DNA of 52,330 bases from a virus (Duplodnaviria; Caudoviricetes), in the IMG/VR virus record IMGVR_UViG_3300030385_001830, positions 1 to 52,330 of that record; one strand, given 5' to 3'. Numbering within the stretch: position 1 is the stretch's first letter; each line of letters begins with the position of its first letter. Positions 3,232-47,910 of the stretch are shown in pieces. The notes below the pieces were generated by a model. The model was not told the origin of the DNA, did no database searches, and saw only the letters and a program-made list of their open reading frames with translations. The translations under genes were made by a program, and so were the position numbers.

Positions 3232-3239
3232 GCCAAGAG

Positions 3240-3782: not shown

Positions 3783-4015
3783 TGACTATACCTTCTAGTG
3801 TCTATCCTTGGCGCGACCGCGTTGTTAGGTCTTCCCCCTTCTCCCGCGTGTTAAGATCATCTCGCAGGGAGAGGTTAGCTACGTGTAAGGAATGCCCCCG
3901 ATATATTAAGGCGGTTAAGGTGTGTGAAGAATGTGGATGTTTTATACCAGCTAAAACTTGGTTTAAAGGGCAAAGCTGCCCCCTTGGTAAATGGAAAGAA
4001 ATTGAATTTGACTAA
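3782..4015 (+). CDS. Small Cys-rich metal-binding protein (DUF6171-like)
   Basis: RLATCKECP...CEECGCF...CPLGKW. Confidence 0.65.
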   Translation: MTIPSSVYPWRDRVVRSSPFSRVLRSSRRERLATCKECPRYIKAVKVCEECGCFIPAKTWFKGQSCPLGKWKEIEFD

Positions 4016-4640
4016 TGAATGGTATTTTTTTACTGAGGCGCTAAACAAAGAAACTTGCAACCGAATAATAAAATTAGGAGACAAGGGCTTTGAAAAAGCT
4101 ACAATAGAAAAAAGTAATGGGGGAGCTACCGCCCAAGAAAGAATAGAGGGTAAAAAACCCGAAGAAGAATTAAATAAAAATATTAGAACAAGTGATATTG
4201 CGTGGGTAGCGGATCAATGGGTATATGACTTAATATGGCCCTACATGGTCACAGCAAACGAACAAGCGGGTTGGAAATATGACATCAAAGCCGCTGAAAC
4301 AATCCAGATAACTCGTTACAAAAAAGGCGGCTTCTACGGATTTCACAAGGACGGAAGAAGTGACAATTTATCTGCTTATAATCGGCCCGACCATTCTTTC
4401 CTACACGGAAATGTTAGAAAATTGAGCATGAGTATCCTCTTAAATGATGATTACGAAGGAGGGGATTTTGAGTTCACCACGTTAAACCCAGAAGGGAAAA
4501 GCGTAATGAAAGCATCCGATTTGTATAAGGCAGGTTCTATTATAGTGTTTCCTTCTTTTATGATGCACGGAGTTAAACCAATAACTAGAGGAGTTAGAGA
4601 CTCACTTGTTGCATGGTTTATAGGGCCACCGTTTAAATGA
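4002..4640 (+). CDS. PKHD-type / prolyl-hydroxylase-like 2OG-Fe(II) oxygenase
   Basis: FHKD, RKLSMSILLNDDYEGGDF and IVFPSFMMHGVKP..RDSLVAW motifs; probable TTG start at 4002 (track ORF begins at 3924). Confidence 0.85.
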   Translation: MNLTNEWYFFTEALNKETCNRIIKLGDKGFEKATIEKSNGGATAQERIEGKKPEEELNKNIRTSDIAWVADQWVYDLIWPYMVTANEQAGWKYDIKAAETIQITRYKKGGFYGFHKDGRSDNLSAYNRPDHSFLHGNVRKLSMSILLNDDYEGGDFEFTTLNPEGKSVMKASDLYKAGSIIVFPSFMMHGVKPITRGVRDSLVAWFIGPPFK

Positions 4641-11700: not shown

Positions 11701-13003
11701 ACAACAGGGCTATCAAACAGTAGGTACAGGGCTACGCGCTCTTACTGACCTTTATGGCAATAGGCTACCTACGGCAGATGCCAGTATTCGGGGGGCGGTG
11801 CAGGGTTATGATCCTTTTGTTGCACAGGGCATAGGGGCATTAGGACAAGGTAGACAATTAGTAACTGACGTAGTACAGGGAGCGCAGCCCTATTTAGCAG
11901 AGTCTGGTCAATATGGCAGAGATGCCGCAGGATTTGGAATAGGTAGTTATGCCGATGCTATGAAAAAAGCAAGGGGGGCTAAGGGCAGGGCATATAGAGC
12001 AGGTGATATAGGCTTGGCAAGTGCGGCAAGTGGAATGCGCCAGTTGGCGGGAACAGGGGATCAATATGACCCTTACTCTACAATGTCCTATATGAACCCG
12101 TATGAGCAACAGGTTATTGATGCTGCAATGGGTGATATAAGGCGTGAAGGTAATAAGCAATTAATGGCACAAAGAGCGCAAGCGGTAGGAGCAGGAGCCT
12201 TTGGGGGTTCACGTGCAGCTTTGGCAGAAAGTGAGCTCAACCGTAATATCATGGAGCAACAGGCTAAAACATCAGCGAATTTAAGGGCACAGGGCTATAC
12301 CCAAGCACAGGCTAACTCCATGGCTTCGTTTGAAGCTTCTCAGAGGCGTCGCCAGCAAGGTGCCCAGATGATGGGTAGCCTAGGAACACAGGGCGCACAA
12401 ACGTCTCTACAGGCCGCTCAACAAGCCCAAACAGGGGCTATACAGGGTGGACAGCTAGGGGGCCAAACCGCCGGAGGAATTAGAGACACAGGTACCTTGC
12501 TCGGTAATTTAGGCACAGGCTATGGACAGCTTGGTATGCAAGGCGCAGAAATCTATGGCCGACAAGCAGGGTTGCTCGGCCAGTTGGGTGAGTCCCGCGC
12601 TAACCTTGGTTTGCGTGGCGTACAACAGTATGGCGATGTTACTAAACAGGGCGTTGCAATGGCAGATTTGGCACGGCAGTACGGATTAAATCAAGCCGAA
12701 TTAGGGCAAGTAGGCCAAACCATGAATATAAGAGACCTAGCAACATTAGAAGCTGCTGGTGGTCGCTTGAGACAGCAGGAGCAAACCCAACTAGATGTAG
12801 CAAGACAGAACAAGTTACAAGATATTTATGAACCGTATCAGCGTATTGGATTCATGAGCGATGTGTTACGTGGAGCTCCCAGCACTCAAATGCAGCTTAC
12901 TAAAAACTACACACAGCAACCCAGTCGTGCTGCTCAGGCCATTGGGGGCATAGGTAGTTTAGTTTCCACTGCTGCTGGGGCTAAACAGGCTAATATTATT
13001 TAA
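8714..13003 (+). CDS. Large internal virion / ejection protein with a Hint domain and internal repeats
   Basis: 1429 aa; C-terminal YMNPYEQQVIDAAM and AGAFGGSR motifs of podophage ejection proteins; Hint domain at aa 209-338. Confidence 0.65.
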   Translation: MALPGQSAEYYQDLEFYSAWQNAVNPGQAPTIGGENLSDPAFLAWKQQQGIGVAPQEEPILPQPQPQLGGDYLYDVAGTRHDVQPGWTNSTVASYLADGTLTPEESAGIRGLLESSSDEGKAAIMGTFGAFDPEFRAQFDQQVSLNPVPMPPPDEVIDDFPTMPPPPGQDVPIMPPPPGQDVPTMPQPQFDPGTPPPPTINMPPPISSCPSPETLIRLKDGETPAGELKVGDLVHTQHEETLEWGQWPVTYVELIEDQPRLKLGFCDNNNKEQEILCSWSHKFYVDGKKWVKAEDMKIGDVVNGRALHGVRWWSDGDVVKITVDEAHTYVAAGLLSHNKTPKRPRGPPPPQNLQEAIAQNGKLGGARWLHGQGQPIPPELQKAAFAEASYKGMQAEQLEDMFDMPRGTAYAFANEMGVPQLFHQRGTPPQRAEYEARIATERAEDAKWQQQVAAAAAKGQDISNFRPVAMSPQPEPRTPPVPKYPGGGPQSIGHAYRTYGALGAARWANEQGLDIPSGLQVEAFKEAGATGISESQIEKMFGLPAGAAAQFAKSNAIPALPGVYSPPTGGIGNLPGIPPIGTQGTATTTTQRPSITYVDPVTGLPTHEPPAVGAGNPMTDALNIINSGGQPTPEQQIAAFEHARKSGTSAATFEQLFGVPAGTAARVAAELGIDNLSTAPAGGQTTTITAGGGQIIPPAVTPATGIGTLTQTGTPAAVTPAAVTPAAVTPAAVTPAAVTPAAGIGTLTQTAGVGPTAGVAQTIAANIANTVTNQQGGLGSLSPTQVAGGVGTTEGAVALGADGQPVVTDGSIDTYGIPGATTGAGTTTTIGGTTAAGTTAAGTTAAGGLGSLASLVNKFKTTGNLSQSELQNLIGMARSQGVSANELANMAGVPVETVTTSLQAQGYAADYLAGGQKTLVPGSTSVTTPSDATTTITRESPEIEARKLGVIDLAKQLASQEPTGGLPPEQVAALSPLERSAYQATVDSFGGFLPAVQQGYQTVGTGLRALTDLYGNRLPTADASIRGAVQGYDPFVAQGIGALGQGRQLVTDVVQGAQPYLAESGQYGRDAAGFGIGSYADAMKKARGAKGRAYRAGDIGLASAASGMRQLAGTGDQYDPYSTMSYMNPYEQQVIDAAMGDIRREGNKQLMAQRAQAVGAGAFGGSRAALAESELNRNIMEQQAKTSANLRAQGYTQAQANSMASFEASQRRRQQGAQMMGSLGTQGAQTSLQAAQQAQTGAIQGGQLGGQTAGGIRDTGTLLGNLGTGYGQLGMQGAEIYGRQAGLLGQLGESRANLGLRGVQQYGDVTKQGVAMADLARQYGLNQAELGQVGQTMNIRDLATLEAAGGRLRQQEQTQLDVARQNKLQDIYEPYQRIGFMSDVLRGAPSTQMQLTKNYTQQPSRAAQAIGGIGSLVSTAAGAKQANII
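9194..9272 (+). repeat. 33-bp coding tandem repeat (PTMPPPPGQDV), about 2.4 copies
   Basis: CCTA(C/T)TATGCCGCCACCACCCGGACAAGATGTC is repeated. Confidence 0.9.
9338..9727 (+). other. Hint (intein-like) domain, 130 aa, no endonuclease
   Basis: Begins CPSPETLI..ELKVGDLV, has a block-B-like CSWSHKF and WVKAEDMKIGD, and ends ITVDEAHTYVAAGLLSHN followed by K. Confidence 0.85.
10853..10940 (+). repeat. 15-bp coding tandem repeat (TPAAV), 5 full copies plus a partial
   Basis: ACGCCAGCAGCGGTA units, flanked by the direct repeat CGGGTATAGGAACCCTTACACAAACAG (10824-10850 and 10938-10964). Confidence 0.95.
11207..11251 (+). repeat. 15-bp coding tandem repeat (GTTAA) x3
   Basis: GGAACAACCGCCGCA x3. Confidence 0.9.
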
Positions 13004-26137: not shown

Positions 26138-27208
26138 ATGGCTATTAGACCAAAAGGTTTTAACGGAAAACCTCCTGTAAAACCAGGAGATATTCAGAAG
26201 TTAGAAGTAACAAAAGAATTTTATAGGTGGATAGTAGAACGCCATGAAATCTATCGTCGCCGACTAGACGGTTATCCTTATCCATGGACAGAAGACCCTG
26301 TCTTAAATCGCTACAAATTCACTAACCCCTTTAGAGAAAATGATGCAGACACTATATGGATGCGTGATTATTTTAGGCCTGACATTTTAAACAAAAAAAT
26401 CGGTTTTGCTGATATCAACCATAATATAGTTAATGCCGCATTGTTTAGAATGATAGGCACCCCCGAATTTGCACAAGAGTTTTTAGAGCAGCATAGGTGG
26501 ATAACTAAAATTAATTACAACCCCGAGTTAATTAAAAAAATAATAAAAGACCGGCTGGCTGCAAAGAAAAAATGCTTCACGGGTGCATATATTGTTACTA
26601 ACCAAGGGATTAAAGCACCCAAGGCTGATGTGGTAATAGATGAATTTATCACACCACTGGCTAAGACACTTCAATACCCTTACACACTTCCCATAGAAGG
26701 CGCAATTTTCAATAGACCTGTTTTAGATTGCATGGAAGATTTACATTCCCTATTGAAAAAGTTTAAAGGGTTTGGGGGTGGAGGTTTTATGGCCTACGAG
26801 GTAGTTACTGATGTAGCTAACATGCCTTTTTATAATCCACTAACAATGAAAATGCGCCATCCTGCCAAGTATATTAGTGACAGGTACCGTTGGGCTAATG
26901 CAGGTCCCGGAGCCATACGAGGATTAAACCGTATATATGATTTTCCTTATAAAGCACGTATGCCGCAAAAAGACGCTAACCTTAGAATGCGAGAAATCAT
27001 AGGGCATAAGTACCTAGCGCATCAATTAGCCGAAGAAAAGGGTTATGACCCAATAGAATTTAAAGACATAGACATGCGCTGCATAGAACACAGCTTATGT
27101 GAATTTGATAAGTATTGCCGAGTTTGTTACAAACAAGGCAAACCCCGTTCTGTTTGTAAATATGACCAAGGGGAAATTTATCCTATTAAGGAAGGCCCAG
27201 TTAAATGA
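26138..27208 (+). CDS. 5-hmdU DNA kinase helical-domain (aGPT-Pplase1-like) DNA base-modification protein
   Basis: ERHEIYRRR...PWTEDPVLNRYKFTNPFRE, GFGGGGFMAYEVVTD, GPGAIRGL and IEHSLCEFDKY motifs. Confidence 0.8.
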   Translation: MAIRPKGFNGKPPVKPGDIQKLEVTKEFYRWIVERHEIYRRRLDGYPYPWTEDPVLNRYKFTNPFRENDADTIWMRDYFRPDILNKKIGFADINHNIVNAALFRMIGTPEFAQEFLEQHRWITKINYNPELIKKIIKDRLAAKKKCFTGAYIVTNQGIKAPKADVVIDEFITPLAKTLQYPYTLPIEGAIFNRPVLDCMEDLHSLLKKFKGFGGGGFMAYEVVTDVANMPFYNPLTMKMRHPAKYISDRYRWANAGPGAIRGLNRIYDFPYKARMPQKDANLRMREIIGHKYLAHQLAEEKGYDPIEFKDIDMRCIEHSLCEFDKYCRVCYKQGKPRSVCKYDQGEIYPIKEGPVK

Positions 27209-28548
27209 AAATATTAATGACGCTTTACCAAATACAAGATTATGGTGGGATAATTAACCACCTTGAAAATCTTACACATGGGTTCAGGCGTAATGGTCAT
27301 CAAGTGGATGTGGTTATGTTATGCCCTAAGCATAAGATAACTAACGTAAAATCTAAACGGGACGATTGGCAAGTTAATCCCGAGGGCACAGGTTATAAAT
27401 TTAACCAAGCTAGAGGATGGACAGGGTTGCCTAAAGTACCCTACCTAAATGCAGCCGCTCGAGAAGCCTTCAGAGACCGCTGCGAGGAATATGATGGGGT
27501 GTTGTGGCATATACCTGTGCCTACCTTAAACAAGGAAAATAAGGGGGTCTCAGAGTGGGTAGAGTTATACAGCTCACGAGCTAAGAACTTTGCTATTCTT
27601 CATGATGGTAACTTCCCTAAGCTGTACCCTCACTTAAACCATGTCAAACATTATTTTAAAGGGTTGATATGTGTACATGAGGCAGCTTACAATGCAGCAG
27701 CCGCTATTGACCTAAAACGTATACTAATTGTTAATCCCTTTGACCTACACACATGGCGTAGAAACCCTGAAGGCTTTGCGCCGTTGAATTTTAATGAAAG
27801 AAATGGGTTTACTTCAGTACAAATATTCAAAGCATGGAAAAGGGTAGACGAATTAATACGCGCTATTCCTTTAATGAACAGCACTCAACACAAACGTATT
27901 GGGGGAGCGGGAATTGAGTACCGCTATATGACAAGCAAGGATAAGTGCAAACCTAAATATTATAACGAACAGGGAGAAAAAATTTGGGATGCAGCTTTAA
28001 AAAGAGGGATGCTGTATTTGGGAACTATCCCAAACTCTAGTGTGTATGCCCATTTAATGCAATCTAAATTACAGATAGACCCAAGCTGGTCTCACAAGTA
28101 TGCAGCCTACGGAGCTCACTTTAACCGCACAACCGTAGAAGCCATGATATGTGGTGCAGTCCCTATGGCAACTGACCTAGGAATGATAGACAGTAAAATA
28201 TTTAAACCAGATATTAACTATGTACAAATTCCCCACGATACCACTCCCAATTATTACGCTGCCCTACTTGACCATTGTTTAAGTGAAGATTATAAGGTGC
28301 AGTGGGAAACAATACGCCAGAACAACTTAGAGTTAATACCAAGGTTTGATTTACAAACAGTGGCGGGTGCTTATGGATATGTTATTCAATGGTCAAATTT
28401 TGCTGATCGAACCACAAACCAATATAGTGCTGAAAAAGGTGAGTTAAGTGACGAAGTAAGGGAAGCATCTAAGAAAAACCTAAAGTTCTTTGGGATAACC
28501 ACAACCGATAATTATAAGGAAAGTTTGGATTTATTTAGGACACACTAA
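27205..28548 (+). CDS. GT-B glycosyltransferase, probably DNA-modifying
   Basis: N-terminal YGGIINHLENL..G..RNGHQV, WKRVDELIRA and C-terminal FNRTTVEAMICGAVP (GT-B donor-binding motif). Confidence 0.75.
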   Translation: MKILMTLYQIQDYGGIINHLENLTHGFRRNGHQVDVVMLCPKHKITNVKSKRDDWQVNPEGTGYKFNQARGWTGLPKVPYLNAAAREAFRDRCEEYDGVLWHIPVPTLNKENKGVSEWVELYSSRAKNFAILHDGNFPKLYPHLNHVKHYFKGLICVHEAAYNAAAAIDLKRILIVNPFDLHTWRRNPEGFAPLNFNERNGFTSVQIFKAWKRVDELIRAIPLMNSTQHKRIGGAGIEYRYMTSKDKCKPKYYNEQGEKIWDAALKRGMLYLGTIPNSSVYAHLMQSKLQIDPSWSHKYAAYGAHFNRTTVEAMICGAVPMATDLGMIDSKIFKPDINYVQIPHDTTPNYYAALLDHCLSEDYKVQWETIRQNNLELIPRFDLQTVAGAYGYVIQWSNFADRTTNQYSAEKGELSDEVREASKKNLKFFGITTTDNYKESLDLFRTH

Positions 28549-29534
28549 TGTATACGTTTACCGCCAGAGGGCCAAGTGAGGGATTATTCCTTGTTAAACA
28601 AGCACTAGAAGAGGTAGGAAAACCCATTGTTACACGCAATGGCGCAGCTTTAGAATTTGTTTCCCCCGTTTTAATTCACTATACTCACCCTAAAGAAAGA
28701 GTACTTTTTTACAAAGAAAGAGACGCTAATCCTTTTTTCCATTTAATGGAAGCCTTATGGATGTTAGCAGGACGCAGGGATGTAAAGTTTGTAAACAACT
28801 TTAATGGACGCATTAAAGACTATTCTGATGACGGTGAAATTTTTCACGGGGCTTATGGATACAGATGGCGCAACTGGTTTAAAAAAGACCAACTAGACGT
28901 AGCAGTAGAGAGATTATCAAAGTGGCCTCATGACAGAAGGACAGTAGTGTCCATGTGGGATGCTAATACTGACTTAATAAAAACCAATGAACACAAAGAC
29001 TTACCCTGTAATACCGCCATTTTTTTCAAACAAAGAAACAACAAGCTAGACATAACAGTTACTAACCGTAGCAATGACCTTATATGGGGTACCTTTGGAG
29101 CCAACATGGTTCACATGTCTATTTTACAAGAATATATGGCAGCAAGATTAGGGTGTGAAGTAGGGAGCTATTACCATTTTACCAATAACCTTCATGCTTA
29201 TGAAGATGTGCTGGCAAAAATTAAGCACATAAAACCTGAATATGACCCTTACCTTACGCTAGGAAAAGATGGTCTTTCTTATAAGCCCCCTTCTTTTGTA
29301 GAGGCACCTGATTATTTTGATAAAGAGTTACAACAATGGTTTAAGGATAGAGACCGAACCCTTTTTGCCAATGAGTACTTATTTAGAACATGCAGCATGG
29401 TAAGGTCAGCGTGGAAATGTTTTAAAGAAGATAATTTAAAAGGGGCGTTTAGTTTTGCAGAGGAAATTAGTGACCGAGCATGGCAAAAAGCCTGTATTGA
29501 ATGGCTAACAAGGAGGGAGATAAAAAAGAGATGA
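28548..29534 (+). CDS. Thymidylate synthase homologue, likely dUMP hydroxymethylase
   Basis: GAYGYRWR, DLPCN catalytic Cys, RSNDLIWG..GAN (Asn at the specificity position points to dUMP) and NNLHAYE. Confidence 0.8.
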   Translation: MYTFTARGPSEGLFLVKQALEEVGKPIVTRNGAALEFVSPVLIHYTHPKERVLFYKERDANPFFHLMEALWMLAGRRDVKFVNNFNGRIKDYSDDGEIFHGAYGYRWRNWFKKDQLDVAVERLSKWPHDRRTVVSMWDANTDLIKTNEHKDLPCNTAIFFKQRNNKLDITVTNRSNDLIWGTFGANMVHMSILQEYMAARLGCEVGSYYHFTNNLHAYEDVLAKIKHIKPEYDPYLTLGKDGLSYKPPSFVEAPDYFDKELQQWFKDRDRTLFANEYLFRTCSMVRSAWKCFKEDNLKGAFSFAEEISDRAWQKACIEWLTRREIKKR

Positions 29535-29869
29535 GCGAAATAAAGGTAAAAAAACTAAATCTAAGTAACCAACTTCAGAAGGCAGAATCTATTGCTTTAG
29601 CTGATATCCTTGCTTTAAATGCAGCGGAAGCCAACTATGGGGATAGTTGGAAAAAGCGTGGAGGTGTGGGTGCCTTTATGATGTTAGCCCGCAAGTGGGA
29701 CAGAATAGAAAACCAAGTTTCACCACGTCGCCGCAATAAAAATTATCCCACCTATGATATATTTCAAGCTCTCACTACCGATGATAGAGATGAGGGTATC
29801 TTAGATGATGTTAGGGATTTAAGAAGATACTTACTGCTAGTAGAATCTGAGGTATATGTGGGTGAATAA
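29531..29869 (+). CDS. Nucleotide-modification-associated (Nmad1 / MazG-like) protein
   Basis: YGDSWKKRGGVGAFMMLARKWDRIEN...DLRRYLLL; likely ATG at 29531. Confidence 0.65.
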   Translation: MSEIKVKKLNLSNQLQKAESIALADILALNAAEANYGDSWKKRGGVGAFMMLARKWDRIENQVSPRRRNKNYPTYDIFQALTTDDRDEGILDDVRDLRRYLLLVESEVYVGE

Positions 29870-40377: not shown

Positions 40378-40726
40378 GGCTAAAACTCCTGTGTGTGAAC
40401 TTTTGTTGTGTACTACACTTGTAGTATGGGGCCGCGACTATCACACCACAACAACAACTAACTGTATATTGGAGCTTCTACAAAAAGTTTGCTATATAGG
40501 GGGATTTACAAATATCAACAATAAACTTTTTCACATATACAAAATATACAATATCACACTATATTAATATCTTTCCCAATTATCAACTACTTATCAACCA
40601 TGGAACCATCAAATGTATATTGTGTTGATCAATAATTGACCAAGTCTCTGGGACGCGCGATCCTTTTTCGTGAAAAAATAAAAAGTGTAACTTTTCACTT
40701 GGGGTCCTATATAGTAAAGTTACTTC

Positions 40727-41263
40727 ATGCCCTTACCCAAACAAACTCATAAACCCCATCTAGAAGTTGTGGCAAATCCCCGCACTGAAAAAAAGATAAC
40801 TCCCAAGCAAGAGGAATTTGTAAGGATTTATTGTTGCGAGGATGTAAGCCAGACAGAAGCTGCGGTACGGGCTGGATACTCTAAGAAGTCTGCACACGCC
40901 ATAGCATCCCAATTATTAAACGGCACTAGATATCCCCACGTAGTAGCTAGAGTTTATGAGGTAAAAAATGAGCTGGCACACAAGTATGAAGTCACATTTG
41001 AAAACCATGTAAAAAAACTAGCAGACATAAGGGATCTAGCATTACGTGAAGGATCATACGCTGCTGCTGTAGCGGCTGAAAAGAACAGAGGACAGGTAGC
41101 AGGTTTATACATTGATCGTAAAGAAATCTTGCACGGAAAGATAGATACTATGACAAGGCCAGAAGTATTGAGGGAAATACAAAAGCTGCATGAGGAATAC
41201 CCTGTGTTGAGTGCAGTGACGGAAAGCAACCTAGTGATAGAAGGGGAAGTTGATAAAACCTGA
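40727..41263 (+). CDS. terS: Terminase small subunit
   Basis: ITPKQEEFV...QTEAAVRAGYS..SA...ASQLL HTH; AAVAAEKNRGQVAGLY. Confidence 0.85.
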   Translation: MPLPKQTHKPHLEVVANPRTEKKITPKQEEFVRIYCCEDVSQTEAAVRAGYSKKSAHAIASQLLNGTRYPHVVARVYEVKNELAHKYEVTFENHVKKLADIRDLALREGSYAAAVAAEKNRGQVAGLYIDRKEILHGKIDTMTRPEVLREIQKLHEEYPVLSAVTESNLVIEGEVDKT

Positions 41264-41675
41264 AAGCAAATTATGGCGAAAACTGAGGGAAGGCACGCGT
41301 GGGCAAGATGTGTTTTGGACAAGGTTGGAGTCATGGGCTGTACCTGGAGTCCCAGATCTGCATGGTATTGTAAATGGTTACTCTTTTTGGCTAGAACTCA
41401 AGCTGCATAAGTTAAAGTCCTTAAATTATATAAATCTAAGTCCGCATCAAATAGCGTGGCAAATAAGATATAGTGGGAATAGTGGATGTGTGTGGAACTT
41501 GGTTGAGCATCCTTCCTCAACCACTATAAATATATTTAGAGGGGAGAGGGCCATTGAGATAGGCCCAAAGAGGGAGAGGAAAGACCCATTGGTAGTGGAC
41601 TGGAGCTCATGTGCCCCGTACGATTGGAGGGGAATGATGGCATATATCGTCTCCCATCCACTCCCCAAAAAATAG
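41250..41675 (+). CDS. PD-(D/E)xK nuclease (Holliday junction resolvase / VRR-NUC-like)
   Basis: ESKLW, GVPDL, FWLELK and LSPHQIAW motifs. Confidence 0.8.
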   Translation: MIKPESKLWRKLREGTRGQDVFWTRLESWAVPGVPDLHGIVNGYSFWLELKLHKLKSLNYINLSPHQIAWQIRYSGNSGCVWNLVEHPSSTTINIFRGERAIEIGPKRERKDPLVVDWSSCAPYDWRGMMAYIVSHPLPKK

Positions 41676-41695
41676 AGACCAAAAAATGAGAGAAG

Positions 41696-41832
41696 TCGTG
41701 TCTACTCGCCTCTAGTCGTGTCCCTTCGTATCTTGTCAACTCCCCGTGGATCATGGACGATGGTCATTGATCGATTACGATCGCCATGGATCGCCATGGA
41801 TCGCCATGGATCTTGGCCGATCGCCCACGATC
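41696..41832 (+). repeat. Phased TC array (5-bp period) running into a GATC array (10-bp period)
   Basis: TC every 5 bp from 41696 to 41741 (ten copies); GATC at 41749 and every 10 bp from 41769 to 41829 (GATG at 41759). Confidence 0.95.
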
Positions 41833-41848
41833 GGTTAACCGTGGGCAT

Positions 41849-41883
41849 AAAAAAGTCCCGCTTGCTAAACTAACAAGCGAGAC
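41849..41883 (-). terminator. Rho-independent terminator of 41906-42496
   Basis: GUCUCGCUUG/CAAGCGGGAC stem followed by U6 on the minus strand. Confidence 0.7.
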
Positions 41884-41905
41884 CGTGTAGTGGCAAAATA
41901 GTCAG

Positions 41906-42496
41906 TTAGGCTTTAGAAGCCATAACGGTTATAGGTTTAACGACCAATTGCACCAAGGACTTGCCGTAGAAAAACTTGCTACGATCCTTTGTGGTATTGG
42001 TCCCGTTTAGCAACATGAGAAGCGTATTGCCATCCCCAATTGTTGCTGTGGACTCTGCTACTTTACCACCAGTAGCTTTGATGGCTACATTTATGTGGTT
42101 GAGTCTACGGCTGGCGGTTTTGCCACCTGCGACTGGTTCCCACTTGAGCTTATCAAATGCTTTGCTCTTGTTGCTGGGTATACCGTCTTTAGGTAGCTGG
42201 ACTCCAAATAGCCAGCAGCGTAACTGATTAGCACGAGTTGTAGTGCTAGCTGCGAACATACCCGCAATCTTAGCGGTATTGGCCCAATTTTCAGCAGTAA
42301 TACCTAGTGAGTCAAACAGTGGTGTAGTTTCTACCACCACATTGGCTTGAAGGTCTGCTGCATTGTCTTTAACAAATTTTGCTACACAAGAACCGCTGAC
42401 CAATTTGTTGCCATTGGTTGCGAAATTCAGGGTAGCCCCGTCGGTAAGGTTTAGAGCCTTTACCAGAGGCTTGGCGGTTACTTTCTGTTTAACCAT
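41906..42496 (-). CDS. Unknown protein, paralogue A
   Basis: 196 aa; promoter TTGTGG-17-TAGTAT upstream; shares GMFA, TGGKV, GNTLxMLLxGTNT and VQLVVKP with 43127-43738. Confidence 0.75.
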   Translation of the reverse strand: MVKQKVTAKPLVKALNLTDGATLNFATNGNKLVSGSCVAKFVKDNAADLQANVVVETTPLFDSLGITAENWANTAKIAGMFAASTTTRANQLRCWLFGVQLPKDGIPSNKSKAFDKLKWEPVAGGKTASRRLNHINVAIKATGGKVAESTATIGDGNTLLMLLNGTNTTKDRSKFFYGKSLVQLVVKPITVMASKA

Positions 42497-42688
42497 AGTC
42501 GTGTACCTTATGTTTGACTATTTTTGCCACTACAAATTCATACTAACATGTACCACATCGTACCACAACAACTGATTACCTAATTACCGAGCGGTTCCCC
42601 CAAGATTGAGACCCAAAATTGAGACGCCGAACTAAGATGGAGGGAGTAGGAGTGACTATACATGTATCTATATATGTTACTTATGGTT

Positions 42689-42732
42689 GATCGTGGCCGA
42701 TCTTGGCCGATCGCCATGGATCATGGGCGATC
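42689..42732 (+). repeat. Second GATC array (10-bp period, 5 copies)
   Basis: GATC at 42689, 42699, 42709, 42719 and 42729; units GATCTTGGCC, GATCGCCATG and GATCATGG are shared with the first array. Confidence 0.95.
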
Positions 42733-42847
42733 TAGGGTGTTGCCTCTTTCCCCCTATCCCCTCTATTGTATCTAGTGCTGTAGGTTGGATAGTCGTTGTG
42801 CCATACTACAATTGTAGCAACTAACCCCAAAAAGGGAGACCCAAAAT

Positions 42848-42946
42848 ATGAGACAGCTCCTCTATTATACTCTGTTATCACTCGCGTTTATTACGCTCGC
42901 TATTAGCTCCGCCATCATCTGGTGGTTGGTAGCACCATGGGTATAG
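42848..42946 (+). CDS. 32-aa single-transmembrane peptide (not in ORF track)
   Basis: Promoter palindrome at 42802-42818, AGGGAG RBS; MRQLLYYTLLSLAFITLAISSAIIWWLVAPWV. Confidence 0.5.
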   Translation: MRQLLYYTLLSLAFITLAISSAIIWWLVAPWV

Positions 42947-43126
42947 CAATAGCTTTTTATATAGTGCTAATACTACTGTATATATAGCCAGTACAATATA
43001 CTGTATAAAATAACAGTATAAATATACCATTGTTTAACACAAAAGTGTTGTGTTTAGCATTTACCTGTGCCTATAATGCTTTATTGGCTTGCAATAAAGC
43101 GGGTCAATAAACACAGGTATAAAACC

Positions 43127-43738
43127 ATGCAAAAAGTAAATACACAAAAAGCAATTACAGCCGGTATAGCTAACCTTAACAGCAATGCCATTTATACATT
43201 ACCTGCTAGTGGTTTAGCTAATGGTGCAAACATTGCAACCTATGCAACTAATAACTGCAATAATAAACTTAGCCAAATAGCCGTGGTAATAACACCATTT
43301 GGTAAGGGTTTAATAAAAGGGTTACCCGTACCCGCTAATGGTTTAAGTGGTAACGCTGCTATTAATGCTTACATGCTGGCGTTTAAAAACTTAAACAATG
43401 GCATGTTTGCGGTTGGCAGCACGGTACGTTGTTACCAGTTTTTGTGTTACATGTTAGGTGTTGTGCCTAACAGTAGCAAAAACAATAAAAGTAAAAAGTG
43501 GGCTAATTTACAGGCTGCTAATGCTTTGGGTACATTAGGTGGTAACAATGCTAGTAGTAGCTTAGGGCATATTGGCACAGTGGTTGGGCACACTGGCGGT
43601 AAAGTTACCAGTGGCAACATTGCCAATGGCAACACACTTGCTATGTTGCTAAGTGGCACCAACACTATTAAAAGCCCGCAACATGCTTTTTTTAAAAAGC
43701 CCATTGTGCAACTGGTAGTTAAGCCTAACCTTAAGTAA
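43127..43738 (+). CDS. Unknown protein, paralogue B (no Asp or Glu)
   Basis: Perfect TATAAT at 43072-43077, CAGGT before ATG 43127, 203 aa, homologous to 41906-42496. Confidence 0.75.
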   Translation: MQKVNTQKAITAGIANLNSNAIYTLPASGLANGANIATYATNNCNNKLSQIAVVITPFGKGLIKGLPVPANGLSGNAAINAYMLAFKNLNNGMFAVGSTVRCYQFLCYMLGVVPNSSKNNKSKKWANLQAANALGTLGGNNASSSLGHIGTVVGHTGGKVTSGNIANGNTLAMLLSGTNTIKSPQHAFFKKPIVQLVVKPNLK

Positions 43739-43760
43739 TACACTTGGCCCCATTGGGCAT

Positions 43761-43793
43761 AAGCCGGGTAGCTAATAACTACCCGGCTTGTTT
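43761..43793 (+). terminator. Probable terminator hairpin
   Basis: 11-bp AAGCCGGGTAG/CTACCCGGCTT stem with a weak U tract. Confidence 0.55.
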
Positions 43794-43942
43794 GTGCTTG
43801 TTACTTTTTGCCTAACGCCTACCATATGGTTAGGTACCTAGCACCCGTTATATGGTGGTACCCTAACACCTACCCTATGGCCCCCCCCCTGAGACATATA
43901 AGGGTACCCGTCAGGGTGGCCTTATACTGTTTACCATGATTC

Positions 43943-45511
43943 GTGGGAGAGCAAAAAATTATTAACAGGGGTACCCCCCTAGACACTGAAAGTGGCCCTA
44001 GGTTCATTGCTGTGTGGAAAATTTCGATATATGATTTTTATATGGATGATAAAGAAATTGAGAAAGTCCCAGAGGAGCGATTGAGGAGTTATGCCCAGTT
44101 GCTTGAGCGAGCGCAGCAGTTGGATCTGGCGGCGGCGGCGCGATTGGGATTTATGGAGTTTGTGTTGTTGGCGTGGCCTGAGTTTATAAATGGACGCCAC
44201 CATAAGATAATGGCTGATAAGTTTAATAAGTTGGCGGCTGGAAAGATTAAGCGCTTGATAGTTAATATGCCGCCGCGCCATACGAAGAGTGAGTTTGCCA
44301 GTTATTTGTTACCGGCATGGATGATGGGTAATAGACCCCATTTGAAGATAATGCAGACGACGCACACGGCAGAGTTGGCTTTTAGATTTGGCCGAAAGGT
44401 GCGTAATTTGATGAATACGGACCATTATAAGCAGATATTTCCTGGAGTGAGTTTACGCGCAGACAGCCAAGCGGCGGGACGTTGGGAGACAAATGCGGGT
44501 GGTGAGTACTTTGCGGCAGGAGTAGGTGGTGCGGTTACGGGCCGTGGTGCGGATTTGTTAATAATAGACGACCCCCACAGTGAGCAGGATGCCCTAAGCC
44601 CAAGTGCCTTGGAAAATGCTTACGAATGGTATACAAGTGGCCCGCGCCAACGGCTCCAGCCAGGAGGCAGTATAGTAATAGTAATGACCCGCTGGGCAGA
44701 TAATGACCTCACCGGTAAGCTGGTAAAGCAACAGGCAAGAGACATCCTAGCCGACAAATGGGACATTGTAGAGTTCCCAGCTTTAATGCCCGACGATAAA
44801 CCGCTCTGGCCCGAATTCTGGAAGAAGGAAGATTTAATAGGCGTAAAGGGTAGTTTAAGTGTAATCAAGTGGGAGGCCCAGTGGCAACAGAACCCCACCA
44901 GTGAGCTGAGCGCGATACTAAAACGCGATTGGTGGAAAAAGTGGAAACACAAGGAAATCCCATCCTGTGTTTACTTAATGCAAAGCTACGACACCGCATT
45001 TAGCAAGAAGGAATCCAGCGACTACAGCGCAATAACCACATGGGGCGTTTTTTATCCAGAGGAAGATGGCCCCCCAAATATCATGCTATGCGATGCACGA
45101 CGAGGACGTTGGGATTTTCCAGAGTTACGCCGCATCGCCTTTGAAGAGTACAAATACTGGGACCCAGAGATAGTGCTAATCGAAGCAAAAGCCAGCGGTA
45201 CCCCCCTAATACAAGAGCTACGCACCATGGGCATACCTGTAACCGAATACAGCCCAAGCCGAGGAAACGACAAGATGTCACGGGTTAATTCAATTGCCCC
45301 GTTATTTGAAACTGGGTTAGTATGGGCACCGGATACCCGCTGGGCTGAAGAAGTAATAGAAGAATGTGGTGCTTTTCCATCGGGAGAGTTCGATGATTAT
45401 GTGGACACTGTTACCCAAGCACTGCGCCGCTTTAGAGAGGGTGGTTTTATAACCCACCCCGAAGATTACAAAGACGACTTCTCGGTTCCTAAGCAGAGAG
45501 TATATTACTAA
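43943..45511 (+). CDS. terL: Terminase large subunit
   Basis: MPPRHTKS Walker A, IIDDPH Walker B, VMTRW, QSYDTA and DDYVD nuclease motifs; true start may be ATG 44042. Confidence 0.95.
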   Translation: MGEQKIINRGTPLDTESGPRFIAVWKISIYDFYMDDKEIEKVPEERLRSYAQLLERAQQLDLAAAARLGFMEFVLLAWPEFINGRHHKIMADKFNKLAAGKIKRLIVNMPPRHTKSEFASYLLPAWMMGNRPHLKIMQTTHTAELAFRFGRKVRNLMNTDHYKQIFPGVSLRADSQAAGRWETNAGGEYFAAGVGGAVTGRGADLLIIDDPHSEQDALSPSALENAYEWYTSGPRQRLQPGGSIVIVMTRWADNDLTGKLVKQQARDILADKWDIVEFPALMPDDKPLWPEFWKKEDLIGVKGSLSVIKWEAQWQQNPTSELSAILKRDWWKKWKHKEIPSCVYLMQSYDTAFSKKESSDYSAITTWGVFYPEEDGPPNIMLCDARRGRWDFPELRRIAFEEYKYWDPEIVLIEAKASGTPLIQELRTMGIPVTEYSPSRGNDKMSRVNSIAPLFETGLVWAPDTRWAEEVIEECGAFPSGEFDDYVDTVTQALRRFREGGFITHPEDYKDDFSVPKQRVYY

Positions 45512-47910
45512 TGGCAGAGACCCCCCGCCCAAGTAACGTAGACAAAGCGTTAATAGAGGCCCCCCTTGGTGGATTAACAGAAGAGGAACAAGGCTTTGCC
45601 AACGCCGAAGATGAAATGCGTACGACGAGTGTGGATGTTGTTATTCAGCGTAATGACGATGGCACAGAAATTGTACTCGAAGGCGAAGAGGAAACAGAAC
45701 AGGAGATTGAAGAATTAGGCAGAGAGCCGGATGAATTTTTCGACAATTTGATTGATTCATTAAGCGATAAGACGATAAGCAGTGTAAAGTCTTATGTAAT
45801 GTCTTCTGTGCAAGATGATAAAAGCAGCCGTGATGAATGGTCACAAGCCTATACCAAAGGACTTAAATTACTGGGGTTAAGGTACCAAGATCGTACGCAG
45901 CCATTTGCCGGAGCATCAGGGGTTACGCACCCTTTGTTAAATGAAGCTGTAACCCAATTCCAAGCCCAAGCCTACAAAGAACTGCTACCCAGCACTGGGC
46001 CAGTAACCGCGCGAATTATAGGGGTTTCCAACCCAGAAATAGAAAAACAGGCACAGCGGGTGCAGGAATACATGAACTATCAAATCATGTATGGCATGGA
46101 AGAGTACGAATCAGAATTTGACCAGATGCTCTATTTTATAGGGTTGGCGGGTTCCGCTTTTAAAAAGGTCTATTTTGATGATGTAACTAAAAAACCAGTA
46201 AGTAAATTTGTGCCCGCTGAGGATGTGCTTGTACCTTACACAGCTACTGACTTAAGAACAGCAGAGCGCATAACCCATGTTGTAAAGATGTCCAAAAATG
46301 AGTTGCGTAAAATGCAACTTAGCGGTTTTTATGCGGATGTAAAAATAACCGAGGGGGGTTTTACTGAGTATAGTGCCATACAGGAAGAATATGACAGATT
46401 AGAGGGTATAGAGCGTACCTCTCCAGATGAGGAGGTCACATTATACGAGTGCCATTGCTCCTTGGATTTGGAGGAATTTCCAGATATTGCAGGTATTACG
46501 GGTGAGAACACCGAGGTTAAATTACCCTATGTAGTAACCGTCTGTGACGATATGAATGCGGTATTGCGTATAAGCCGTAATTATCGCCAAGATGACCCAG
46601 TTAAAGCGAGTATTGGGTCTTTTGTACAGTACAAGTTTACTCCCGGCTTGGGCTTTTATGGTTTTGGATTAGTGCATTTACTGGGTAATTTGAGCCGCAC
46701 CGCTACCAGTACATTGCGCCAATTGATAGATGCTGGAACATTAGCTAATTTGCCCTCAGGATTTAAAGCAAAAGGGGTGCGGATAGCTGATCAAGGTAAT
46801 CCGCTGCATCCGGGAGAATGGCGTGATATTGATGTTCCCGGCGGGGATATACGATCAGGACTTATACCGTTGCCTTATAAGGAACCAAGCGCGACTTTAT
46901 TTCAGTTAATGGGGTTTGTAGTGGATGCGGCCCAACGCTTTATAGGTACAACCGATATAAGTGTTGGTGACAGTAATGAGGCAATGCCAGTAGGCACGAC
47001 TATTGCTTTGCTGGAGAGAGGATCGAGGATTGTTTCGGCAGTACATAAGCGTATGTATGCCAGTATGAAAATAGAACTTAAAATGTTGTCTAGATTATTT
47101 GCTGAGGACCCCGCCCCCTACCCCTATGACGTAGGAGAAGACGCCCAAATTAAATCAAGTGATTTTGACAGCCGCATTGATATTTTACCAGTGAGTGATC
47201 CCAATATTTTCAGTATGTCTCAACGGGTGGTATTGGCACAAGAGCAGTTAAAGCTCGCAACAGCAGACCCAGACATGCACAATATGTATGAAGCCTATAC
47301 CCGTGTGTATCAGGCATTAGGGGTACAGAACATAGATGAAATTTTAAAACCGCAGCCGACTCCTGAACCAACCGACCCAGCCACCGAAAACCAAGAAGCC
47401 AGCAATGCTGCCAACGGTCAAGGAGAACTCAAGGCTTTTCCTGAGCAAGACCATCAAGCCCATATTAAAGTACACATGGGGTATATGGAGAGTGGGATAG
47501 CCCAGCAACAAACTCCGGTATTATTGACATTAGAAAAGCACATTTATGACCATTTGGGCCTACAGGCTCAGATGATGGCAGAACAACAAGCACAACAGAT
47601 GGGAATCCAAGACCCCGCGCAAATGGCAGCTTTAGTAGCTCAAATACAGGCACAGATTATAGAACAGCATCAGGAGACATTACCACCGGCTAATAAAGGG
47701 GATGATGACCCATTAATTGCTCTGAAAGAACGAGAATTGGATCTTAAAGAACAAGACCAACGTGCAGACCAAATGTACGATGCAGAAAGGCTAGAGTTCG
47801 AAGAAGAGAAAAATGCCCGCAACATGGAAATTCAAAACCGCCGTATAGACAGCACAGAAGACATAGCACAATTACGTGCGAGAATTGCATTACAAAGGTC
47901 TAATAAATAG
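45511..47910 (+). CDS. Portal protein
   Basis: 799 aa, directly after terL; HPLLNEAVTQFQAQA, GSAFKKVY and LRQLIDAGTLANL motifs. Confidence 0.88.
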   Translation: MAETPRPSNVDKALIEAPLGGLTEEEQGFANAEDEMRTTSVDVVIQRNDDGTEIVLEGEEETEQEIEELGREPDEFFDNLIDSLSDKTISSVKSYVMSSVQDDKSSRDEWSQAYTKGLKLLGLRYQDRTQPFAGASGVTHPLLNEAVTQFQAQAYKELLPSTGPVTARIIGVSNPEIEKQAQRVQEYMNYQIMYGMEEYESEFDQMLYFIGLAGSAFKKVYFDDVTKKPVSKFVPAEDVLVPYTATDLRTAERITHVVKMSKNELRKMQLSGFYADVKITEGGFTEYSAIQEEYDRLEGIERTSPDEEVTLYECHCSLDLEEFPDIAGITGENTEVKLPYVVTVCDDMNAVLRISRNYRQDDPVKASIGSFVQYKFTPGLGFYGFGLVHLLGNLSRTATSTLRQLIDAGTLANLPSGFKAKGVRIADQGNPLHPGEWRDIDVPGGDIRSGLIPLPYKEPSATLFQLMGFVVDAAQRFIGTTDISVGDSNEAMPVGTTIALLERGSRIVSAVHKRMYASMKIELKMLSRLFAEDPAPYPYDVGEDAQIKSSDFDSRIDILPVSDPNIFSMSQRVVLAQEQLKLATADPDMHNMYEAYTRVYQALGVQNIDEILKPQPTPEPTDPATENQEASNAANGQGELKAFPEQDHQAHIKVHMGYMESGIAQQQTPVLLTLEKHIYDHLGLQAQMMAEQQAQQMGIQDPAQMAALVAQIQAQIIEQHQETLPPANKGDDDPLIALKERELDLKEQDQRADQMYDAERLEFEEEKNARNMEIQNRRIDSTEDIAQLRARIALQRSNK

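What the first reader, a model, noticed from the sequence alone, without database searches (positions are those of the whole stretch)
41676..43980. Candidate new system: modification-patterned genome end between terS and terL
Seen: terS and the resolvase are separated from terL by about 2.3 kb. The interval holds TC/GATC-saturated arrays, paralogue A, a TM peptide, TC/GA-free paralogue B and a palindrome cluster. The same genome encodes a T-hypermodification cluster (26-32 kb). Inference: if packaging starts near 43.9 kb and runs rightward, the TC/GA-free unit is packaged last and ejected first. It would be a modification-free (or defence-invisible) pioneer gene, followed by densely marked arrays and then the small early genes. 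Dinucleotide density would then form a positional code on top of the genes. I know of no description of this, but I cannot search the literature.
Basis: inference. Interest (0 to 1): 0.88.

Follow-up and report, generated by a model that had tools for sequence, protein, structure and literature searches.

The report
Phage gene unit purged of TC/GA
A marine phage with thymine-modification genes keeps one small gene unit beside its DNA-packaging genes completely free of the two-letter step TC/GA, at the cost of a protein without acidic residues, probably so that this stretch alone escapes the phage's own DNA mark.

Summary
Window 42919-43890 (972 bp) holds one TC and no GA where about 97 TC/GA are expected. 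It carries two palindromes, gene B (43127-43738, 203 aa, no Asp/Glu) and an intrinsic terminator. It ends at a conserved poly-C+GAGAC motif about 150 bp before terL.

No other dinucleotide class is missing. The purge goes beyond amino-acid choice: genome-typical codons would give 37±5 TC/GA in B, and 0 are seen. Relatives keep it at as little as 52% DNA identity, also in a second, distantly related protein family in the same slot.

Eight of nine relatives with the thymine-modification-type cassette have the island. Two complete relatives without PF18723 lack it, and one of them was shown to lack the whole cassette. Flodman 2019 inferred TG/TC as the modified context in M6, ViI and phiW-14.

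Best reading (about 0.5): a modification-exempt, early gene unit. That it is a terminal, first-entering unit like T5 first-step-transfer DNA rests only on a 1.8-fold depth step.

The scan's earlier notes report similar GA/TC-free islands in other phages. My four searches of the held library found no description in print.

The parts
26138..29869 (+). Thymine-modification-type cassette: M6 gp55-like HMUDK_hel protein, GT-like 447-aa protein, thymidylate-synthase homologue (likely dUMP hydroxymethylase) and a 122-aa ORF, between the UvrD-like helicase and PolA
   Evidence: Pfam PF18723 E 1.6e-39, weak glycosyltransferase hits, PF00303 E 1.1e-22. tblastn gives M6 gp55 32% and gp58 42%, with no gp54 or gp51 hit at E<=1. 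All four genes are absent from complete relative G007.
40727..41263 (+). Small terminase subunit
   Evidence: Pfam Terminase_2 E 3.4e-12. 60-93% identical in 22 IMG/VR loci.
41250..41675 (+).
   Evidence: PHROG 2165 1.8e-15, endonuclease 6e-5, resolvase 0.0018. RecU 0.004, below cut-off. No Pfam hit.
41749..41832 (.). GATC array 1: 7 GATC at exact 10-bp spacing (41769-41832), plus one at 41749
   Evidence: 15 of 15 related loci examined have such arrays, only on this side of the island.
41854..41884 (-). Intrinsic-terminator-like hairpin after paralogue A
41906..42496 (-). Paralogue A: basic 196-aa protein of normal composition (42 TC/GA, 12 Asp+Glu)
   Evidence: AF2 model pLDDT 79, pTM 0.79. 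No Pfam, PHROG or NCBIfam hit. One X4 contig skips 41854-42595.
42689..42732 (.). GATC array 2: 5 GATC at exact 10-bp spacing
42848..42946 (+). 32-aa hydrophobic ORF; the island's left edge lies in its 3' part
   Evidence: ORF list. Similar ORF start in L001 and L003. Not tested further.
42919..43890 (.). TC/GA-free island: 972 bp with one TC (43104) and no GA
42974..43018 (.). Two adjacent 20-bp palindromes that match a recalled gammaproteobacterial LexA-box pattern (1 and 0 mismatches)
   Evidence: 6 strand-matches at 3 sites in the window against 0.46 expected. A similar 20-mer sits upstream of B in L002, L004 and L006-L009.
43127..43738 (+). Paralogue B: 203-aa protein, 17 Lys+Arg, no Asp or Glu, no TC/GA in its DNA
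   Evidence: Ser is encoded only by AGY, Ile by ATT/ATA and Phe by TTT.
43759..43791 (+). Intrinsic-terminator-like hairpin after B, inside the island
   Evidence: A hairpin plus T-run stands at the same place in relatives.
43873..43895 (+). Poly-C run followed by TGAGAC: the conserved right edge of the island, and its first GA
   Evidence: Present in the 10 loci shown. The 13-mer occurs exactly once in the window. Poly-C length varies in X2 and X4.
43896..44041 (+).
   Evidence: Conserved blocks in all loci. A pattern from it recovered L001, L005, L038 and L039.
44042..45511 (+). Large terminase subunit
   Evidence: Pfam Terminase_6C. 75-93% identical in relatives.

Best explanation
The island is a modification-exempt gene unit.

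What the phage carries. It encodes a thymidylate-synthase homologue, an M6 gp55-like HMUDK_hel protein, a GT-like transferase and its own PolA. This set resembles the pathways that replace T with 5-hmdU and then decorate it after replication in a sequence-dependent way.

What I infer.
- The decorated context here is the step TC, which reads GA on the other strand.
- The 0.8-1.0 kb before the terL leader is kept free of that step on both strands. This stretch holds operator-like palindromes, gene B and its terminator, and it is then the one gene-sized piece of virion DNA that stays plain.
- B, a very basic protein of a lineage-specific family, can therefore be read or can survive when marked DNA cannot. 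That is most likely right after entry, before other phage functions exist.
- The ordinary paralogue A, which is marked like the rest of the genome, serves at other times.

Shown: the purge, its depth, its conservation, and its association with the cassette within this lineage.

Inferred: that TC is the marked context, that exemption is the selected effect, and when B acts.
For: 1. Only GA/TC is missing, on both strands, across non-coding flanks, the ribosome-binding region, the gene and the terminator.
2. B's protein written with genome-typical codons would carry 37±4.7 TC/GA (minimum 22 in 2000 draws); 0 are seen. The acidic residues present in A are gone from B.
3. Conservation. 8 of 9 IMG/VR loci have runs of 658-992 bp. 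In 16 of 24 metagenome loci the matched gene has 2 or fewer TC/GA; some of these loci are the same contigs as the IMG/VR ones. Of 44 distinct family genes, 18 have 0.5 or fewer per 100 bp, 5 have 1.2-4.0 and 21 have 6.5-12.8. Purged genes are 52-94% identical in DNA.
4. A second family in the same slot shows the same pairing of a normal and a purged copy. It is distantly related (hhalign probability 59%, E 9e-5). Evidence.
5. Association with the cassette. G000, G002, G003, G006 (nearly purged), G016, G017, G018 and G019 have both. G007 and G009 (complete genomes, no PF18723) lack the island and the family, and G007 lacks all four cassette genes. G016-G019 were found through the GT-like protein, not through B.
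6. Genome-wide TC and GA observed/expected are 0.69 and 0.90 in G000 against 1.21 and 1.16 in G007.
7. Literature. Hypermodification is sequence-specific (Lee 2018 PMC5889632 and Lee 2021 PMC8989533, passages). Resistant sites in M6, ViI and phiW-14 share TG/TC (Flodman 2019 PMC6449724, passages).
8. Other 4-bp palindromes are not avoided in the island, so this is not general restriction-site avoidance.
Against: - No chemistry. Nothing here shows that any base is modified, or that modification falls in TC.
- No homologue of the M6 P-loop kinase gp54 or of the transferase gp51 was found, so the pathway differs from the characterised ones.
- G011 has an apparently intact cassette but a relaxed slot gene, 7.6 per 100 bp. 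L058 is relaxed too, and its cassette state is unknown.
- All cassette-bearing genomes belong to one syntenic lineage, so the association rests on few independent events.
- M6, Pam3 and PhiJL001 (first 50 kb of each), which carry gp55 homologues, have no dinucleotide-free run.
- Hypermodified phages such as M6 and ViI express their genes from marked DNA, so it is unclear why one unit must be exempt.
- My hand-read -35/-10 for B fell below the promoter scan's threshold.
- If the LexA-box-like palindromes bind LexA, B could be repressed at entry.
Confidence: 0.5

Rival explanations
1. Terminal, first-entering unit; a refinement of the best reading and not exclusive of it. The island is the tip of the packaged DNA, at the right end of a roughly 2-kb direct terminal repeat that also holds A and the GATC arrays. 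It enters the cell first, like the first-step-transfer DNA of T5 or the leading 850 bp of T7. It must lack whatever a host factor reads, whether marked T or the bare TC step, until B has acted. The densely marked arrays behind it could pause entry.
For: - Unitig depths in X2 are 129 (40384-41515), then 213 (41871-42595) and 202 (43124-43742), then 111, 110, 106 and 110 (43881-47000). X3 gives 24 and 19 against 7-19.
- The island ends in every locus at the same poly-C+GAGA motif, next to a conserved leader.
- It lies beside the terminase genes, and its length is similar in relatives at 658-992 bp.
- A and B are inversely oriented units, as in the BF23 first-step-transfer region. T5 resists R-M and CRISPR provided that sites are absent from that region (PMC10644984, passages).
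- Nucleases that sense hypermodified DNA, and phage inhibitors of them, exist (END nuclease preprint, abstract).
- The portal is SU10-like and large ejection-type proteins are present.
Against: - No molecule ends were seen. The raw-read run X22 gave one read.
- The depth step could come from a co-occurring strain that shares this stretch, and X4 does not show it.
- No contig in hand ends at the motif. IMG/VR classes the window's record as linear without end repeats and 89% complete.
- B is transcribed towards the proposed tip, so transcription could not pull the DNA in as in T7.
- If packaging is headful from a pac site, ends are not fixed.
Confidence: 0.35
2. Avoidance of a host or competitor factor that reads the bare TC/GA step. 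Candidates are a TC-specific DNA deaminase, nuclease or ADP-ribosyltransferase. The island is intrinsically invisible to it. The cassette either protects the rest of the genome from the same factor or is linked only by descent.
For: - Removing TC on both strands is what immunity to a TC-reading DNA enzyme would need.
- G011 and L058 show that the purge can be lost, in G011 while the cassette stays. That fits a host-dependent pressure.
- TC-context enzymes exist; I recall DddA-type and APOBEC-type deaminases, DarT and T4 endonuclease IV, but this comes from no call.
Against: - Protecting 1.7% of a genome from a damaging enzyme gives little benefit unless the rest is protected or absent.
- Relatives without the cassette (G007, G009) show no purge and have an excess of TC/GA.
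- No such host factor is identified here.
Confidence: 0.15
3. Self-exemption of a reader. B, and A, bind or act on the marked TC sites, for example by coating, protecting or regulating marked DNA or by guiding the modifying enzymes. B's own gene lacks those sites to escape its product's action.
For: - A and B are strongly basic: +17 net charge for B and +14 for A, my count from the Lys, Arg, Asp and Glu totals.
- Weak structural rows, Z 2-3.5, are often winged-helix DNA-binding domains.
- The family is confined to this lineage: 12 representatives among 1.84 billion.
Against: - No significant fold or family match.
- A, the paralogue, is not exempt.
- In this model every other gene would be subject to the product.
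Confidence: 0.1
4. A cis-acting packaging or replication element. Plain DNA is needed beside the pac/cos site for terminase, portal or origin function, and the gene inside is incidental.
For: - Position between the 10-bp phased GATC arrays, which could be TerS binding sites, and the conserved terL leader.
- An AT-rich palindromic region lies inside the island.
Against: - Two protein families are maintained in the slot under heavy recoding, with conserved protein sequence. A purely structural spacer would not need a gene.
- The island spans the gene and its terminator closely.
Confidence: 0.07

Closest known systems
First-step-transfer (pre-early) DNA of phage T5 and BF23
   Same: The principle is the same: DNA exposed before protective functions exist must lack target sites. 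T5 resists R-M, CRISPR and Ssp systems provided that sites are absent from the first-step-transfer region. That region lies in a terminal repeat, carries two inversely oriented units, and is followed by a repeat-rich region (PMC10644984, passages).
   Different: Here a whole dinucleotide class is removed, not a few 4-8-bp sites, and at the cost of all Asp and Glu. The unit is about 1 kb, not about 10 kb. A terminal position and stepwise entry are not shown. The avoided step is tied to the phage's own modification genes rather than to a host enzyme.
Context-specific thymidine hypermodification from 5-hmdU (M6, ViI, phiW-14, SP10, PaMx11)
   Same: A thymidylate-synthase homologue, a gp55-like HMUDK_hel protein and an own PolA are clustered. 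In those phages modification is partial and sequence-specific and is inferred to fall on T followed by G or C.
   Different: No homologue of the P-loop kinase gp54 or of aGPT-Pplase2 gp51 was found; a GT-like protein stands in their place. No exempt island is described in the passages I read, and I found none in the first 50 kb of M6, Pam3 or PhiJL001.
Restriction-site and short-motif avoidance in phage genomes
   Same: Selection removes a short DNA word from phage sequence.
   Different: Known avoidance is genome-wide and statistical, and concerns palindromic or longer words (recalled, from no call). Here it is local and absolute, it concerns a 2-letter step, other palindromes are kept, and a normally written paralogue sits beside it.
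Leading end of T7-like phages (early promoters and gene 0.3)
   Same: A short leading stretch with host-type promoters and an anti-defence first gene (recalled, from no call). This phage is likely a podovirus with ejection-type proteins.
   Different: No compositional purge is known there. The direction of B does not fit transcription-driven entry.

Membership tests
5-hmdU-derived thymidine hypermodification pathway (Lee 2018, 2021) | Thymidylate-synthase homologue acting as dUMP hydroxymethylase | tested here: inconclusive
   PF00303 E 1.1e-22 and 42% identity to M6 gp58. NCBIfam thymidylate-synthase models score far below cut-off. Substrate and product were not tested.
5-hmdU-derived thymidine hypermodification pathway (Lee 2018, 2021) | P-loop 5-hmdU DNA kinase (M6 gp54 type) | tested here: not met
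   tblastn of M6 gp54 against the window gave no hit at E<=1. Only this one query was used, so a distant kinase could be missed.
5-hmdU-derived thymidine hypermodification pathway (Lee 2018, 2021) | HMUDK_hel / aGPT-Pplase1-type protein (M6 gp55 type) | tested here: met
   PF18723 E 1.6e-39 over 278 of 281 positions. 32% identity to M6 gp55.
5-hmdU-derived thymidine hypermodification pathway (Lee 2018, 2021) | Amino-acid:DNA transferase (aGPT-Pplase2, M6 gp51 type) | tested here: not met
   No tblastn hit below E 0.36. A GT-like 447-aa protein with sub-threshold glycosyltransferase hits stands in the cluster.
5-hmdU-derived thymidine hypermodification pathway (Lee 2018, 2021) | Modified thymidine in virion DNA, in a defined sequence context | not testable with these tools
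   Needs nucleoside analysis and single-molecule mapping. The only raw-read run gave one read.
T5-type first-step-transfer region | Lies in a direct terminal repeat | tested here: inconclusive
   1.8-fold unitig depth over about 41.9-43.7 kb in X2, weaker in X3, absent in X4. No read ends were seen.
T5-type first-step-transfer region | Free of the sites read by the relevant nuclease or defence | tested here: met
   One TC and no GA in 972 bp. The factor that reads the step is unknown.
T5-type first-step-transfer region | Enters first, with a pause before the rest of the genome | not testable with these tools
   Needs infection experiments.
T5-type first-step-transfer region | Pre-early genes under host-type promoters | tested here: inconclusive
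   The consensus scan found no plus-strand promoter upstream of B. By eye I read TTGTGT, an 18-bp spacer and TATAAT near 43050-43079. Terminators were found for both A and B.
Any described protein family for A/B | Significant match to a Pfam, PHROG or NCBIfam model or to a solved fold | tested here: inconclusive
   No family hit (family 2). Foldseek found none at E<=0.001. The best VIA Z was 3.5.
LexA (SOS) operator | CTGT-N8-ACAG palindrome at a promoter | tested here: inconclusive
   Two adjacent matches at 42974-43018, against 0.46 matches expected in the window. The consensus is recalled. Their position relative to a promoter and the identity of the host are unknown.

The most novel reading that the evidence does not exclude
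Phages that mark their DNA in a two-letter context use that context as an address. By spelling, they make one starter unit unwritable (no TC/GA at all) and the neighbouring 10-bp phased GATC arrays maximally writable. The packaged genome would then carry a fixed pattern of plain and densely marked DNA at its entering end, and this pattern orders the first minutes of infection. The scan's notes report GA/TC-free and GG/CC-free units in other phages (unchecked). If those hold, this would be a general and so far undescribed layer of phage genome design.
Probability: 0.25. Interest if true: 0.92.

Novelty: new variant of a known kind. Interest (0 to 1): 0.8.

Why it matters
If the reading holds, sequence alone reveals the context specificity of a DNA-modifying system: the missing step names the target. 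That context is an open point for thymidine hypermodification. Lee 2018 states that the motifs were not known, and Flodman 2019 only infers TG/TC.

It would also show that a phage must keep part of its genome out of reach of its own mark. That points to a cost of hypermodification, or to a modification-sensing defence, at the start of infection.

Practical uses:
- Purged islands could serve as a search key for context-specific modification systems in metagenomes.
- They flag B-type proteins as candidate first-acting anti-defence or takeover factors.
- The recoding of a protein family to do without Asp and Glu is a natural experiment in protein evolution under a nucleotide-level ban.

Tried and rejected
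- Naming A/B. Pfam, PHROGs and NCBIfam gave nothing. The phage tblastn gave no match. The ESM Atlas gave only unnamed viral clusters at scores of 0.89 or less.
- Fold of B. The AF2 model was poor (pLDDT 58), and Foldseek on it found nothing.
- Fold of A. The AF2 model with 30 sequences was good (pLDDT 79), but Foldseek pdb found nothing at E<=0.001 and the best VIA-wide Z was 3.5. The winged-helix rows are a lead only.
- The repeated GAGACCCAAAAT word is not enriched: 7 matches against 5.35 expected.
- General restriction-site avoidance is rejected, because non-TC/GA palindromes are present at or above expectation.
- Mutational decay, such as TC-to-TT deamination, is rejected. Base composition is unchanged, AA/TT is only slightly raised, and the protein is conserved.
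- An RNA-level cause is rejected as the main cause. Both TC and GA vanish over the same span, including about 200 bp upstream of the start codon and about 150 bp past the stop codon.
- A phage RNA polymerase was sought and not found among the ORFs scanned.
- Cultured phages with gp55 homologues (M6, Pam3, PhiJL001; first 50 kb of each, not whole genomes) show no dinucleotide-free run.
- Termini. The raw-read run X22 gave one read, so no ends could be mapped.
- The Carin-5 paper (abstract and section 17) and the Matilda preprint (passages) did not bear on the question.
- Literature searches found no description of a dinucleotide-free gene unit. The library lacks most subscription journals. Supplements are closed, and the supplementary restriction tables of Flodman 2019 and the SI of Lee 2018 may bear on the TG/TC claim.

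Full report
WHAT IS THERE

The window is a whole 52,330-bp viral record, classed as linear and 89% complete. It is a marine phage: the stretch is held by runs of 16 studies, all marine, seawater, marine sediment or hydrothermal vent metagenomes.

Its genes include:
- terS at 40727-41263 and terL at 44042-45511;
- an SU10-like portal, a capsid protein and large ejection-type proteins;
- a replication module with an AEP primase, a UvrD-like helicase and PolA.

Between the helicase and PolA lies a four-gene cassette at 26138-29869:
- an HMUDK_hel protein (PF18723, E 1.6e-39);
- a 447-aa protein with sub-threshold glycosyltransferase hits;
- a thymidylate-synthase homologue;
- a 122-aa ORF.

The HMUDK_hel protein is the homologue of M6 gp55, not of the P-loop kinase gp54. 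No gp54 or gp51 homologue was found, and the synthase homologue is 42% identical to M6 gp58. No RNA polymerase turned up among the ORFs scanned.

THE OBSERVATION

TC+GA make up 10.0% of dinucleotide positions in the window. From 42918 to 43891 there is a single TC, at 43104, and no GA. The longest other TC/GA-free run in the window is 96 bp. TC and GA disappear over the same span.

No other dinucleotide class is depleted, and base composition is the same inside and outside. Four-base palindromes without TC/GA occur at or above the expected rate.

From left to right the island holds:
- the 3' end of a 32-aa hydrophobic ORF;
- two adjacent 20-bp palindromes at 42974-43018;
- gene B at 43127-43738;
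- a terminator-like hairpin at 43759-43791;
- about 100 bp more, ending at a poly-C run followed by TGAGAC.

B has no Asp or Glu. Its Ser codons are all AGY, Ile is ATT/ATA and Phe is TTT. Drawing codons for B's own amino-acid sequence from the genome's usage gives 37±4.7 TC/GA, with a minimum of 22 in 2000 draws. None is observed.

Paralogue A (41906-42496, minus strand; 33% identical to B) has 42 TC/GA and 12 acidic residues, and it has its own terminator. Arrays of GATC at exact 10-bp spacing flank A, at 41769-41832 and 42689-42732.

CONSERVATION

The A/B family is tiny. There are 11 and 12 clusters in the 5.8-billion-protein search, and 12 representatives among 1.84 billion. Most members lack Asp and Glu, including the two most distant full-length ones.

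- In 8 of 9 IMG/VR loci the gene and its flanks form a TC/GA-free run of 658-992 bp. The ninth, L002, has 22 TC/GA in the gene but keeps purged flanks.
- In 16 of 24 metagenome loci the matched gene has 2 or fewer TC/GA.
- Phages with terS about 70-75% identical carry a second, smaller family in the same slot (hhalign to the first family: probability 59%, E 9e-5). It again comes as a normal copy followed by a depleted copy next to terL. The depleted copy ranges from fully purged (L039, 686 bp; G018 856 bp; G019 628 bp; G017 539 bp; G016 397 bp), through nearly purged (L027, 1.2 per 100 bp) and partly purged (L025, L029), to relaxed (L038, 7.6-8.3 per 100 bp).
- Over all loci, 44 distinct genes of the two families split into 18 at 0.5 or fewer TC+GA per 100 bp (15 at zero), 5 at 1.2-4.0 and 21 at 6.5-12.8. 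That tally missed some purged genes of G016-G018.
- Fifteen purged genes are 52-94% identical in DNA, median 65%. The ban has therefore been kept through hundreds of substitutions.
- The island's right edge is the same poly-C+GAGA motif in the 10 loci shown, followed by a conserved leader.
- All 15 loci examined have GATC arrays with 10-bp spacing, only to the left of the island.

LINK TO THE CASSETTE

The cassette or its PF18723 gene is present in G000, G002, G003, G006, G011 and G016-G019. G001's contig is cut at that module, so it is uninformative.

Eight of these nine have a purged or nearly purged slot gene. G011 does not, although its cassette genes are full length.

G007 and G009 are complete genomes with terS 60-63% identical. 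They have no PF18723 match, no A/B family member and no TC/GA-free run above 47 bp. G007 lacks all four cassette genes, going from the helicase straight to PolA.

TC and GA observed/expected are 0.69 and 0.90 in G000 against 1.21 and 1.16 in G007. GATC is about half of expectation in G000 and enriched in G007.

All these genomes are one syntenic lineage, so the association rests on few independent gains or losses.

WHAT THE LITERATURE GIVES

- Flodman 2019 (passages) found that restriction-resistant sites in M6, ViI and phiW-14 share TG or TC, and inferred that the kinase prefers T followed by G or C.
- The BF23 paper (passages) records that T5 resists R-M, CRISPR and Ssp defences provided that sites are absent from its first-step-transfer region. 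That region lies in the terminal repeat, carries two inversely oriented units, and is followed by a repeat-rich region.
- The END nuclease preprint (abstract) shows that hosts have nucleases that sense hypermodified DNA, and that such phages need inhibitors of them.

None of these, nor searches, describes a gene-sized dinucleotide-free unit.

HOW IT MOST LIKELY WORKS

Shown: selection at the DNA level forbids the step TC/GA on either strand across one gene unit, and this trait accompanies the modification-type cassette in this lineage.

Inferred: TC is the context that the phage's post-replicative machinery marks. The island is then the only gene-sized piece of plain DNA in the virion, so B can be expressed, or its DNA left alone, when marked DNA is not usable or is under attack.

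The paired normal copy suggests one function supplied in two regimes. I put this reading at about 0.5.

IS IT THE ENTERING TIP?

In run X2, from the same sample as the probable source, perfectly matching unitigs have the following depths:

| Span | Depth |
|---|---|
| 40384-41515 | 129 |
| 41871-42595 | 213 |
| 43124-43742 | 202 |
| 43881-47000 (four unitigs) | 111, 110, 106, 110 |

X3, from another study, gives 24 and 19 against 7-19. X4 does not agree, because conserved terL and portal words there are shared with commoner strains.

A 1.8-fold plateau with sharp sides fits a direct terminal repeat of about 2 kb that ends at the island's right edge. It could also be a second strain sharing just this stretch. 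That seems less likely, since A and B are the least conserved genes of the region, but it is not excluded.

No read ends could be seen. I give the terminal reading about 0.35, as a refinement and not a competitor.

RIVALS

- A host factor that reads bare TC, 0.15.
- Self-exemption of a protein that acts on marked sites, 0.1. A and B are +14 and +17 in net charge by my count, and the weak structural rows are often winged-helix domains.
- A cis-acting packaging element, 0.07.

THE PROTEIN

The A model is confident (pLDDT 79, pTM 0.79). It is a compact helix-rich domain closed by the conserved C-terminal strand. It has no significant neighbour among solved structures. Its function is unknown, and a nucleic-acid-binding early factor is my guess.

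EARLIER NOTES OF THIS SCAN

One search lists GA/TC-free islands in at least four other genomes, some with thymine-modification genes, and GG/CC-free islands near packaging genes in others. These are unchecked AI notes. They did not enter my evidence, but they suggest that the phenomenon is general.

VERDICT

- I found no description in print in what I could search.
- Class: new variant of a known kind, that is, site-free leading DNA and context-specific hypermodification. A bolder reading is not excluded.
- Interest: 0.8.

Noticed in passing
window 42974-43018: Two adjacent 20-bp palindromes match a recalled LexA-box pattern with 1 and 0 mismatches. The window has 3 sites in all, against 0.46 matches expected. 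A similar 20-mer sits upstream of B in L002, L004 and L006-L009. It may be an SOS or phage-repressor operator, and it hints at a gammaproteobacterial host.
   Followed up: partly
window 41854-42595 (run X4): One contig joins 41853 to 42596 with a single G between, which removes paralogue A and its terminator. G002, G003 and L058 also carry only one family member. A is therefore dispensable or mobile.
   Followed up: partly
L058 and L072 (one 117,023-bp metagenome contig): The same locus occurs twice, 58,724 bp apart, so the contig is a two-unit concatemer and the unit genome is about 58.7 kb. Its slot gene is relaxed at 7.2 TC+GA per 100 bp. I could not check whether it has the cassette.
   Followed up: partly
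window 43872-43880: The poly-C run at the island's edge varies in length between contigs of X2 and X4 (one C inserted behind 43880), and many unitigs pile up there (summed depth 2191 in X2).
   Followed up: no
window 8714-13003: The 1429-aa virion-type protein has a pretoxin-HINT domain (PF07591, E 4.2e-7) at residues 216-302.
   Followed up: no
window 2443-4640: Three neighbouring genes for a sulfotransferase-family protein, an Asp/Asn beta-hydroxylase-like protein and a 2OG-Fe(II) oxygenase sit among structural genes.
   Followed up: no
G007 (L045) about 6035-6217: A 183-bp run without AC/GT in the cassette-less relative (score 11.8). It is probably a simple repeat; I did not look at it.
   Followed up: no
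G016 45377-46660: In this 62-kb relative the GT-like gene lies apart from the rest of the cassette, beside the SNF2 helicase gene. The island is still present.
   Followed up: no
window 41664-41686, 42597-42632, 42825-42847, 43883-43895: A C-run followed a few bases later by GAGAC recurs four to five times in the terS-terL interval and only three times elsewhere in the window. The last copy is the island's right edge.
   Followed up: partly
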